Of a DNA stretch of 4,492 nucleotides, positions 3,832 through 4,492 are shown in pieces. The DNA comes from a virus. Its lineage: Duplodnaviria; Heunggongvirae; Uroviricota; Caudoviricetes. The position numbers and the translations under genes were made by a program. Location: IMG/VR virus record IMGVR_UViG_2913112809_000001; one strand, given 5' to 3'. Below the pieces are notes generated by a model. It made no database searches. It worked only from the letters and a program-made list of their open reading frames with translations, and had not been told where the DNA came from. Numbering within the stretch: the stretch's first letter is position 1; every line of letters starts with the position of its first letter.

Positions 3832-4188
3832 CCACTACGCTATAAACATTCAGTAGAGACGATAGATTCAGAGCACGCCGATCTCATTTTCAAGATGCGC
3901 CCTGTGTGGTACAGGTCGCAATGCGAAAATGACAGGCGCGATTGGGGATTCTACGGATTGATTGCCGAGGAAGTAGGAGAAATTGCCCCTCAGTTTGTAC
4001 ACTGGCGACCAGCTAACGAGAATGATGCTCCTGAAGCTATTTCCAGCAATGGTCTTGTTGCCGAAGGTGTGATGTACGAACGTCTGGTTGTTCCACTGAT
4101 TCACCATATCCAGAAACTGACTGAAAGAGTGGATGAACTTGAGTCAGAATTAAAGTTGTTATCAACTTCCCGAAGCGATATCGGATAA
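3832..4188 (+). pseudogene. 3' remnant of a tail-fibre/tailspike gene: C-terminal intramolecular chaperone (peptidase S74-like) domain only
   Basis: The open frame begins right after an in-frame TGA at 3829..3831 and ends at TAA 4186..4188. Its translation '...[29 protein letters not shown]...GLIAEEVGEIAPQFV...LVVPLIHHIQKLTERVDELESELKLL' matches the remembered pattern of the self-cleaving C-terminal chaperone domain of phage tail fibres and endosialidases. The entire N-terminal fibre portion is absent, and the first ATG (3895) has no SD. Confidence 0.55.
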
Positions 4189-4198
4189 AGGAGGAGTA

Positions 4199-4492
4199 AT
4201 GGATATAACACCTTTCCTTCATGCGCTTTGTGCTGTGGCTGCGCAGCTACTGATTGGTCTTTTTACCGGAAACTGGGCTTACGGTGCGATAGCTGGTTGT
4301 ACGTTCTTCATTGCGCGTGAACACACCCAGGCAGAATATCGCTGGATTGAAATGTTCGGGCATGGCAAGCGGATTAACATGCCGTGGTGGGGCGGTTTTG
4401 ATCCGCGCGCGTGGGATGTAGCAAGCCTGATGGATTTTGCTGTGCCGGTGGTGGCGTGTCTGCTGGTCTGGCTGTTGGTAAATCGCGGGTGA
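4199..4492 (+). CDS. Small putative inner-membrane protein (97 aa, two predicted hydrophobic helices), function unknown
   Basis: ATG at 4199 with a strong SD ('AGGAGG', 4-nt spacer) that overlaps the stop codon of the upstream tail-fibre remnant, and TGA stop at 4490..4492. Two hydrophobic segments ('FLHALCAVAAQLLIGLFTGNWAYGAIAGCTFFIA' and 'ASLMDFAVPVVACLLVWLLV') flank a Trp/Gly-rich hydrophilic loop. Confidence 0.6.
   Translation: MDITPFLHALCAVAAQLLIGLFTGNWAYGAIAGCTFFIAREHTQAEYRWIEMFGHGKRINMPWWGGFDPRAWDVASLMDFAVPVVACLLVWLLVNRG

What the first reader, a model, noticed from the sequence alone, without database searches (positions are those of the whole stretch)
4186..4492. Small two-helix membrane protein translationally coupled to the decayed tail-fibre gene
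The SD overlaps the stop codon of the fibre remnant, so the gene was once co-translated with the tail-fibre gene. It remains intact with a strong SD while the fibre gene has decayed, which suggests selection for a host-beneficial function. Small membrane proteins at this position in prophages include superinfection-exclusion and lysogenic-conversion factors (general knowledge; inference here). I do not recognise the family.
Basis: partly seen in the sequence, partly recalled or inferred. Interest (0 to 1): 0.4.

Follow-up and report, generated by a model that had tools for sequence, protein, structure and literature searches.

The report
Conserved small membrane gene beside tail-fibre genes
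This is a real, strongly conserved 97-residue membrane-protein gene of an uncharacterised family that rides at the end of phage tail-fibre gene blocks and also occurs alone in some bacterial chromosomes; its function is unknown, and this copy probably survived because one deletion stopped just short of it.

Summary
The ORF 4199-4492 (97 aa) is real. An AAGGAGG Shine-Dalgarno at 4188-4194 shares one base with the TAA of the upstream fibre fragment. The protein belongs to PHROG family phrog_1443 (unknown function; E=1e-58) and matches no Pfam, NCBIfam, PADLOC or PDB entry. AlphaFold predicts three helices, not two (pLDDT 92.8). The near-invariant residues are H8, R40-E41, Q44-A45-E46, R58, W72 and P83. 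dN/dS is about 0.07-0.10.

In 12 of 13 phage or prophage settings examined, across lambda-, P22-, P2/HP1- and P1-like and jumbo phages, the gene directly follows or lies between receptor-binding genes. Stand-alone copies exist in Aeromonas (syntenic, dN/dS about 0.15) and in Sphingomonadaceae.

The "decayed" fibre gene is one deletion junction at 3819-3838. Its surviving 117 codons are identical in protein to an intact copy, so this locus gives no evidence of selective retention.

Function is unresolved. I favour an envelope-acting accessory protein of the phage-exclusion type (about 0.3). Lysis control is a live rival, because distant relatives adjoin lysozyme-fold, LydA-like and LydB genes.

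The parts
4199..4492 (+). CDS of a 97-aa small integral membrane protein (phrog_1443 family), stop codon included. The stop is the last codon of the window.
   Evidence: ORF listing. phrog_1443 E=1e-58 over residues 1-96. 577 homologues. AF2 model with three helices, pLDDT 92.8. dN/dS 0.07-0.10.
4188..4194 (+). Shine-Dalgarno AAGGAGG. It shares base 4188 with the TAA of the upstream ORF and lies 4 nt before the ATG.
   Evidence: Read directly from the sequence. The same element is present in roughly 50 related loci.
3838..4188 (+). 3' fragment (117 codons including the stop) of a 234-aa Peptidase_S74 tail-fibre gene. It holds most of the intramolecular-chaperone domain. An ATG-initiated ORF runs 3895-4188.
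   Evidence: Megablast and blastn homology begins at 3838. The intact homologue L001 7647-8351 has Peptidase_S74 at residues 116-172. The translations are identical from RYKHSV... to the stop. Matches the C-termini of tail-fibre PHROGs.
3819..3838 (.). Deletion junction. Homology to a full-length lambdoid prophage (int, xis, inverted-repeat cassette) ends at 3819, and homology to the fibre gene starts at 3838.
   Evidence: blastn of the window against L170 and against fibre-bearing loci. In L170 the next genes are lambda-like gam, bet and exo (my reading of the ORF translations).
3810..3822 (+). Terminator-like hairpin followed by a T-run, lying on the junction and upstream of the fibre fragment.
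   Evidence: Consensus scan. The same scan found no promoter-like site between here and the ATG. These are pattern matches only.

Best explanation
SHOWN.
- 4199-4492 encodes a conserved 97-aa integral membrane protein of the uncharacterised family phrog_1443.
- The predicted fold is a helical hairpin (4-23, 26-53), a Trp-rich loop (54-73) and a third, strongly hydrophobic helix (74-96).
- The family keeps a near-invariant polar signature: H8, R40-E41, Q44-A45-E46, R58, W72 and P83.
- In phages the gene sits at the 3' edge of the receptor-binding-protein block. It is usually coupled to the preceding late gene by a 4-nt overlap, a 0-15 nt gap, or an SD on the stop codon.
- It pairs with unrelated receptor-binding proteins, and no partner gene is constant.
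- Orthologues also exist as stand-alone chromosomal genes under purifying selection.
- In this window the gene survives at the right end of a prophage whose interior was removed by one deletion.

INFERRED (mechanism).
- The protein acts alone in the cytoplasmic membrane.
- It uses the invariant polar pocket at the membrane interface to bind or alter an envelope component conserved across Proteobacteria.
- The result is a change in how the envelope is breached by phage. My preferred version is exclusion of incoming phage, at or after penetration of the envelope.
- In this it is analogous to, but not homologous with, other envelope-protein genes kept beside receptor-binding genes.
- It is probably made with the tail-fibre genes late in infection. 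Whether a lysogen expresses it is unknown.
For: - Real and constrained: phrog_1443 E=1e-58; 577 homologues; 428 clusters at 50% identity, all listed members small stand-alone proteins; dN/dS 0.07-0.10.
- Structure: AF2 pLDDT 92.8, three helices.
- Invariant polar residues in sequences only 30-60% identical to the window protein. This suggests a specific binding or catalytic site.
- Position next to receptor-binding genes in 12 of 13 phage settings: E. coli Ecol_448 prophage, phage 21, JEP4, phiHAP-1, Aeromonas phage 4_4512, ACP1, HC8A, Leclercia P2/HP1-like, Comamonas, HannyBb, Leclercia P1-like, Citrobacter.
- Module boundary exactly at the start codon in 38 loci.
- The same protein (94-100% identical) pairs with three different upstream genes.
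- Dispensable for lytic growth: only a frameshifted remnant remains after the S74 tail spike of phage HC8A, and four related phages show the same partial, unannotated match.
- Beneficial or needed outside phages: Aeromonas copies are syntenic in five genomes with dN/dS 0.13-0.18, leaving out one near-identical pair. Sphingomonadaceae copies sit in housekeeping neighbourhoods.
Against: - No experiment, and no homology to any characterised exclusion protein. PHROGs, Pfam, NCBIfam, PADLOC and PDB all give nothing, and the fold searches are uninformative.
- No promoter of its own was found in the window or in phage HannyBb. A terminator precedes the gene in 38 loci. This points to late expression rather than lysogen expression.
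- The sequence does not vary with the type of receptor-binding protein, unlike receptor-specific factors such as Cor or Llp.
- The copy in jumbo Aeromonas phage ACP1 is intact.
- Chromosomal orthologues could equally mean a housekeeping role unrelated to phage.
- Several relatives adjoin lysis-type genes.
- Topology is unresolved. K+R counts put the conserved loop inside, while the basic C-tails of the Sphingomonadaceae-type members argue the opposite.
Confidence: 0.3

Rival explanations
1. Lysis-related membrane protein. It would be a holin, antiholin or lysis-timing modulator made late with the tail genes, acting on the cytoplasmic membrane or on the release of a muralytic enzyme.
For: - About 100 aa with three predicted helices, and a basic C-terminus in many members. 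This resembles class I holins superficially (general knowledge).
- Late-operon coupling.
- Aeromonas phage 62AhydR11PP: phrog_3108 -> 2-TM protein -> this gene, with overlapping reading frames.
- Pantoea has the same two TM genes downstream.
- The P1-like Leclercia element has this gene just before a 104-aa gene and LydB. Reading that 104-aa gene as LydA rests on its position and my knowledge of P1.
Against: - In the settings with annotated neighbours, the lambda-, P22- and P2/HP1-like carriers show no lysis-type gene beside it. That these phage types keep their lysis cassettes elsewhere is general knowledge.
- Invariant polar residues conserved from gamma- to alpha-proteobacteria are unlike holins, which are highly diverse (general knowledge).
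- No holin family matches in Pfam or PHROGs.
- Stand-alone chromosomal orthologues under purifying selection in non-phage settings.
- Decayed in the HC8A-type phages.
- The adjacency may only reflect that in those phages the lysis cassette is the module after the tail genes. Bordetella phage PHB09 has that cassette without this gene.
Confidence: 0.17
2. Envelope-modifying or envelope-homeostasis factor of cellular origin. It would be a very small enzyme or regulator acting on a lipid-linked glycan, peptidoglycan or membrane lipid, carried by phages as an auxiliary gene. Any effect would be lysogenic conversion or support of the infected cell, not direct exclusion.
For: - An enzyme-like set of invariant H, R, E, E and W residues.
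- Chromosomal orthologues conserved and syntenic in Aeromonas, next to two lipid A acyltransferase genes and a kinase-like gene on the opposite strand.
- In Sphingomonadaceae, a cyclopropane-fatty-acid-synthase-type gene follows 22 nt downstream in one setting and a DsbA-like gene overlaps by 4 nt in another.
- It occupies the slot downstream of the tailspike gene where P22-like phages carry O-antigen conversion genes (position; the comparison is general knowledge).
- The upstream receptor-binding proteins are often polysaccharide-directed types (S74 fibres, a pectate-lyase-fold spike, Laminin_G-type fibres).
Against: - No conserved chromosomal neighbour or partner gene.
- No similarity to GtrA, acyltransferases or any enzyme family.
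- 97 aa is very small for an enzyme.
- Sphingomonads lack classical LPS (general knowledge), so an O-antigen-specific role cannot be general.
Confidence: 0.2
3. Tail-fibre accessory. It would be needed to assemble or mature the neighbouring fibre, and so be useless once the fibre is gone.
For: - It is constantly next to receptor-binding genes and often translationally coupled to them.
- In E. coli it occupies the slot of tfa, whose 3' remnant lies just downstream (my reading of the sequence).
Against: - It is an integral membrane protein, whereas fibres assemble in the cytoplasm (general knowledge).
- It pairs with unrelated fibres and spikes, including S74 fibres that carry their own chaperone.
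- It occurs without any phage genes in Aeromonas and Sphingomonadaceae.
- It has decayed behind an intact S74 spike in HC8A.
Confidence: 0.04

Closest known systems
phrog_1443 (PHROGs v4, 'unknown function'); e.g. phage 21 CPT_21_24 'putative membrane protein' and the phage HannyBb CDS0021 region
   Same: Full-length HMM match (E=1e-58, residues 1-96 of a 97-position profile). 95-99% protein identity to copies in sequenced lambdoid phages. Same position after the side-tail-fibre genes.
   Different: Nothing. This is the family. No member has a known function. This copy sits in a deletion remnant rather than an intact phage.
Cor (phi80/N15/T1) and Llp (T5): exclusion lipoproteins encoded beside receptor-binding genes
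   Same: A small envelope-protein gene kept next to the receptor-binding gene (analogy from general knowledge).
   Different: Cor and Llp are outer-membrane lipoproteins that block one receptor, FhuA (general knowledge). This protein is read as a helical inner-membrane protein with no lipoprotein signal, it does not vary with the receptor-binding protein, and the only PHROG families it matches have no known function.
Inner-membrane superinfection-exclusion proteins (T4 Imm, HK97 gp15, P22 SieA)
   Same: Small phage-encoded cytoplasmic-membrane proteins that act without a phage partner (general knowledge). This is the proposed mode of action.
   Different: No sequence relationship to any annotated PHROG, Pfam or PADLOC family. 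Different genome position. This family also has chromosomal orthologues.
Class I holins (lambda S105 type)
   Same: About 100 aa, three predicted helices, often a basic C-terminus, late expression. In some relatives it adjoins a lysozyme-fold gene or lydB.
   Different: No holin family match. Invariant polar motif across classes. No lysis-type gene beside it in the E. coli and Leclercia P2-like carriers examined. Non-phage orthologues under purifying selection.
O-antigen conversion genes downstream of the P22-like tailspike gene (gtrABC, oac)
   Same: Same slot between the tailspike gene and int in the P22-like phage JEP4. Membrane protein.
   Different: No GtrA or acyltransferase Pfam match. 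No gtrB/gtrC-like partner genes. It overlaps the spike gene by 4 nt, whereas conversion genes are usually separately transcribed (general knowledge).

Membership tests
phrog_1443 (uncharacterised phage protein family) | Full-length match to the family HMM | tested here: met
   E=9.7e-59, 196.6 bits, residues 1-96 against profile positions 1-96 of 97.
phrog_1443 (uncharacterised phage protein family) | Family signature H8 / R40-E41 / Q44-A45-E46 / R58 / W72 / P83, derived here from 105 diverse members | tested here: met
   All these residues are present in the window protein. R40, E41 and W72 are invariant and the rest are conserved at 90% or more.
Holin (class I) | Match to a described holin family | tested here: not met
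   No Pfam hit at E<=0.1. The only PHROG hits are three families of unknown function.
Holin (class I) | Encoded next to an endolysin or spanin in a lysis cassette | tested here: not met
   Not in the window or in the E. coli, P22-like and P2-like carriers examined. It is adjacent to a lysozyme-fold gene or to lydB only in Comamonas, Aeromonas-phage and P1-like relatives.
Holin (class I) | Lethal, membrane-permeabilising when expressed | not testable with these tools
   Needs an expression experiment. Non-phage orthologues kept under purifying selection argue against constitutive toxicity.
Known superinfection-exclusion proteins (Imm, SieA, gp15, Cor, Llp) | Sequence or profile homology to a characterised member | tested here: not met
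   The only PHROG hits are three unknown-function families. PADLOC, Pfam, NCBIfam and PDB give none. BFVD returns only a 42-aa fragment that appears to be the same family.
Known superinfection-exclusion proteins (Imm, SieA, gp15, Cor, Llp) | Reduces plating or DNA entry of incoming phage | not testable with these tools
   Needs phage challenge of cells expressing the gene.
Moron (autonomous prophage cargo gene) | Own promoter upstream and terminator downstream; expressed from the repressed prophage | tested here: not met
   No promoter-like site between 3823 and 4198. The SD is fused to the upstream stop codon. In 38 loci a terminator lies about 20 nt before the ATG with no room for a promoter. 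The downstream side is outside the window. These are pattern scans only, and expression was not measured.
Peptidase_S74 tail fibre (the upstream remnant) | C-terminal intramolecular chaperone domain (PF13884) at the end of a fibre protein | tested here: met
   The intact 234-aa homologue has PF13884 at residues 116-172. The window keeps its codons 118-234 with an identical protein sequence. The ATG-initiated window ORF alone did not reach Pfam significance.

The most novel reading that the evidence does not exclude
phrog_1443 would be a new class of single-component envelope protein shared by phages and bacterial chromosomes. It would be a tiny three-helix inner-membrane protein whose invariant H/R-E/Q-A-E/W pocket binds or modifies a conserved envelope component. 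Phages would keep it beside their receptor-binding genes to control who can breach the envelope, either by excluding rival phages or by gating lysis. The Aeromonas and Sphingomonadaceae chromosomal copies would be domesticated versions.
Probability: 0.25. Interest if true: 0.6.

Novelty: new member of a known kind. Interest (0 to 1): 0.33.

Why it matters
About a third of complete E. coli genomes (1,891 of 5,426) carry DNA matching this gene and the adjoining fibre fragment, usually in more than one place. Relatives sit beside the receptor-binding genes of at least five different phage architectures, yet no member has a known function. A family this conserved, this small and this consistently placed is a cheap and well-defined target for experiments on phage exclusion, lysis control or envelope biology. 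The chromosomal orthologues give a second, phage-free system in which to study it. For this window alone the finding is ordinary: a hypothetical prophage gene left behind by a deletion.

Tried and rejected
- Pfam, NCBIfam and PADLOC scans of the protein, and PADLOC scans of two distant members, gave no hits.
- A profile search of all PDB sequences at E<=10 gave nothing.
- Foldseek against BFVD gave only a 42-aa fragment that appears to be the same family.
- The afdb50 library was unavailable.
- Literature searches by accession, PHROG id and keywords found nothing on this family. One search and one paper outline on lysis cassettes were irrelevant.
- Clustering all ORFs within 4 kb of 64 genome loci to find a constant partner gene found none. 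High-GC genomes gave noisy ORF calls.
- A bulk PHROG scan of the immediately upstream ORFs was too diffuse for a clean count, but it revealed DNA-ligase neighbours.
- The positive-inside rule on 105 members gave conflicting signals, so I do not assert a topology. My earlier N-out/C-in reading from basic C-tails is withdrawn as unproven.
- Rfam and tRNA scans of the window were empty.
- Rejected the fibre-assembly role, for the reasons given under the rivals.
- Rejected the idea that retention here shows selection, because the adjacent fibre fragment is equally undamaged.

Full report
**What is in the sequence**

ORF 4199-4492 on the + strand starts with ATG and encodes 97 aa. Its TGA is the last codon of the window. 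The upstream ORF 3895-4188 ends in TAA at 4186-4188. AAGGAGG occupies 4188-4194, so it shares one base with that stop. Four bases (AGTA) separate it from the ATG. No Rfam family or tRNA lies in the window.

**It is a real, constrained gene**

- The protein matches PHROG family phrog_1443 ('unknown function') over its whole length, E=9.7e-59.
- It has no Pfam, NCBIfam or PADLOC match.
- A search of 5.8 billion proteins found 577 homologues, none with a functional name among the 120 listed.
- An exhaustive profile search of 1.84 billion cluster representatives found 428 clusters. All 150 listed are 58-146 aa, so it is a stand-alone protein and not a domain of something larger.
- Among 39 distinct E. 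coli-clade alleles, median dN/dS is 0.07 against the window copy and 0.10 over all pairs.

**Structure and conserved residues**

AlphaFold2 with an 83-sequence alignment gives a confident model (pLDDT 92.8). It has three helices (4-23, 26-53, 74-96) and a loop at 54-73. Kyte-Doolittle hydropathy shows two strongly hydrophobic stretches (3-24 and 71-97) and a weaker one at 25-39. 'Two-helix' is thus an understandable reading, and the phage 21 annotators' TMHMM also reported two TM domains. The model says helical hairpin plus a third helix.

In 105 diverse members, mostly 30-60% identical to the window protein:
- R40, E41 and W72 are invariant.
- H8, Q44, A45, E46, R58 and P83 are conserved at 90% or more.
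- The core reads GRExxQAEYRWI...R.NMPWWGGFD..W.

Conserved polar residues of this kind suggest a specific binding or catalytic site.

Topology is unresolved. K+R counts place the conserved loop inside the cell (5.3 K/R). The very basic C-tails of the Sphingomonadaceae-type members argue the opposite.

**The 'decayed' fibre gene**

Homology to intact copies begins at window 3838 in 42 fetched loci. In E. coli Ecol_448 the intact gene encodes a 234-aa 'tail fiber domain-containing protein' with a Peptidase_S74 chaperone domain at residues 116-172. The window retains codons 118-234.

That fragment is 100% identical in protein to the intact copy even though the DNA differs by 2.9%. It has not eroded.

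To the left, the window matches a 41-kb IMG/VR prophage contig (L170) from int through an inverted-repeat cassette, up to position 3819. In L170 the next ORFs read as lambda-like gam, bet and exo (my reading of the translations). I therefore read the window as a prophage whose interior was removed by one deletion, with the junction at 3819-3838, joining the int-proximal region to the right end.

The small gene lies beyond the deletion endpoint. Its intactness here is no evidence of selective retention.

A terminator-like hairpin sits on the junction (3810-3822). No promoter-like site was found between it and the ATG, so expression of this copy is doubtful (pattern scans only).

**Where the family sits in phages**

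| Setting | Arrangement |
|---|---|
| E. coli, window-like (about 44 loci; 42 share DNA from 3838) | S74 fibre, with its stop fused to the SD |
| E. coli, terminator type (38 loci) | Homology begins exactly at 4198; a 343-346-aa tail fibre, then an intrinsic terminator about 20 nt before the ATG |
| Phage 21 type | Side tail fibre -> 92-aa phrog_1361 protein -> this gene |
| E. coli, downstream side | A 3' remnant of a tail-fibre-assembly gene follows, so the cassette replaced part of stf-tfa |
| P22-like JEP4 | Overlaps the tailspike gene by 4 nt and precedes int |
| Myovirus phiHAP-1 | Overlaps the fibre-assembly gene and precedes the sheath gene |
| Leclercia P2/HP1-like prophage | Starts at the base after a 939-aa S74 fibre |
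| Citrobacter lambdoid prophage | 14 nt after a pectate-lyase-fold spike |
| Leclercia P1-like element | After two Laminin_G-type fibres, before a 104-aa gene (LydA-like by position) and LydB |
| Comamonas prophage | After gpJ and a 72-aa gene |
| Aeromonas phage 4_4512 | After a 698-aa unannotated protein |
| Jumbo Aeromonas phage ACP1 | An intact copy just upstream of a putative tail-fibre gene |
| Phage HC8A | A frameshifted remnant behind an intact S74 spike; four related phages show the same partial, unannotated match |

The protein is 94-100% identical across the three E. coli arrangements. It is therefore not matched to one receptor.

**The family is not only in phages**

A scan of one genome per species found it in gamma-, beta- and alpha-proteobacteria and in Desulfovibrio.
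- In Aeromonas it is a chromosomal gene between a pirin gene and a kinase-like gene followed by two lipid A acyltransferase genes.
- That Aeromonas copy is syntenic in five genomes. dN/dS is 0.13-0.18, leaving out one pair of near-identical strains.
- In Sphingomonadaceae it lies in varied housekeeping neighbourhoods. Neighbours include an aspartate-oxidase-type flavoprotein, a DNA ligase, RmuC and DsbA-like genes, a hydantoinase, and a cyclopropane-fatty-acid-synthase-type gene.
- No constant partner gene emerged.

**The lysis question**

In this window and in the E. coli, P22-like and P2-like carriers examined, there is no such neighbour.

In some relatives there is:
- In Comamonas the gene is followed by two multi-TM proteins and a phrog_3108 protein. 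Pantoea has the same two multi-TM genes.
- In Aeromonas phage 62AhydR11PP it overlaps a 2-TM gene that follows a phrog_3108 gene.

A lysis-linked role is therefore a live rival. Against it:
- the invariant polar motif across distant taxa;
- the non-phage orthologues under purifying selection;
- the absence of any lysis-type neighbour in most carriers examined;
- the decay of the gene in the HC8A-type phages;
- Bordetella phage PHB09, which has the same post-gpJ cassette without this gene.

The adjacency may only reflect module order.

**Verdict**

The descriptive part is solid: a conserved accessory membrane-protein gene at the distal edge of receptor-binding cassettes, left here by a deletion.

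The mechanism is inferred. My estimates are:

| Reading | Probability |
|---|---|
| Single-component envelope-acting protein that limits entry of other phages | about 0.30 |
| Envelope modification or homeostasis | about 0.20 |
| Lysis control | about 0.17 |
| Fibre assembly | about 0.04 |
| Something else | the remainder |

By sequence it is already in databases as a hypothetical protein. What is new is the family-level picture. Interest is moderate to low for this window, and higher for the family as an experimental target.

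Noticed in passing
window 2568-2625 and 3581-3638, enclosing 2626-3580: A 58-nt inverted repeat (98% complementary) flanks a low-GC (35-39%) 955-bp cassette. The cassette holds ORF 2794-3495 (233 aa, Pfam Invasin_D4, E=3e-7) and a hairpin at 3515-3551. The same cassette is in one IMG/VR prophage contig (L170). Megablast finds it in none of the 5,426 complete E. coli genomes. It could be a mobile or invertible cargo cassette.
   Followed up: partly
window 3819-3838; L170 1-5939: The window is a deletion remnant of a lambdoid prophage. 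Homology to L170 stops at 3819, where L170 continues with ORFs that read as lambda-like gam, bet and exo. The S74 fibre fragment starts at 3838.
   Followed up: yes
window 2218-2577 (-) and 2081-2395 (-): A Peptidase_S24 (UmuD/HumD-like) fragment (E=1.8e-4, just below the Pfam cut-off) lies next to a phrog_536 'transcriptional regulator'. E. coli genomes annotate the matching DNA as 'DNA repair protein' or 'HumD family translesion DNA polymerase'.
   Followed up: no
[not shown]
   Followed up: partly
L008 3965-4120 (phage HC8A): An unannotated, frameshifted remnant of the family gene lies directly behind an intact 859-aa S74 tail spike. The small gene evidently travelled with the S74 end of the spike and then decayed in this phage group.
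   Followed up: partly
L169 5522-6112 (-) (phage HannyBb); L089 5522-6112 (-): In phage HannyBb a DNA invertase gene lies about 230 bp downstream of the family gene on the opposite strand. E. ruysiae L089 has an ORF of the same size at the same place. I did not check whether the fibre region there is invertible.
   Followed up: no
L013, L019, L029 and about 20 other IMG/VR loci: Many IMG/VR prophage contigs end exactly 3 nt after the end of the protein match, that is at this gene's stop codon, as the window does. This probably reflects how prophage boundaries were cut at gene ends, with this gene often the last phage-like gene.
   Followed up: no
L001 7356-7634; L002 5710-5985; L171 4994-5278 and 6601-6888: A 92-95-aa soluble protein recurs directly after Laminin_G-type or side tail fibres and before the S74 fibre or the family gene. 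The E. coli and phage 21 copies match phrog_1361 (unknown function); the Leclercia ones are inferred from size and position. It may be a fibre chaperone or adaptor.
   Followed up: no
L076, L049, L054, L070, L071: Some E. coli alleles of the family gene have lost the stop codon and run to 146-150 codons. The matching 146-aa cluster (P0003) has 205 member sequences.
   Followed up: no
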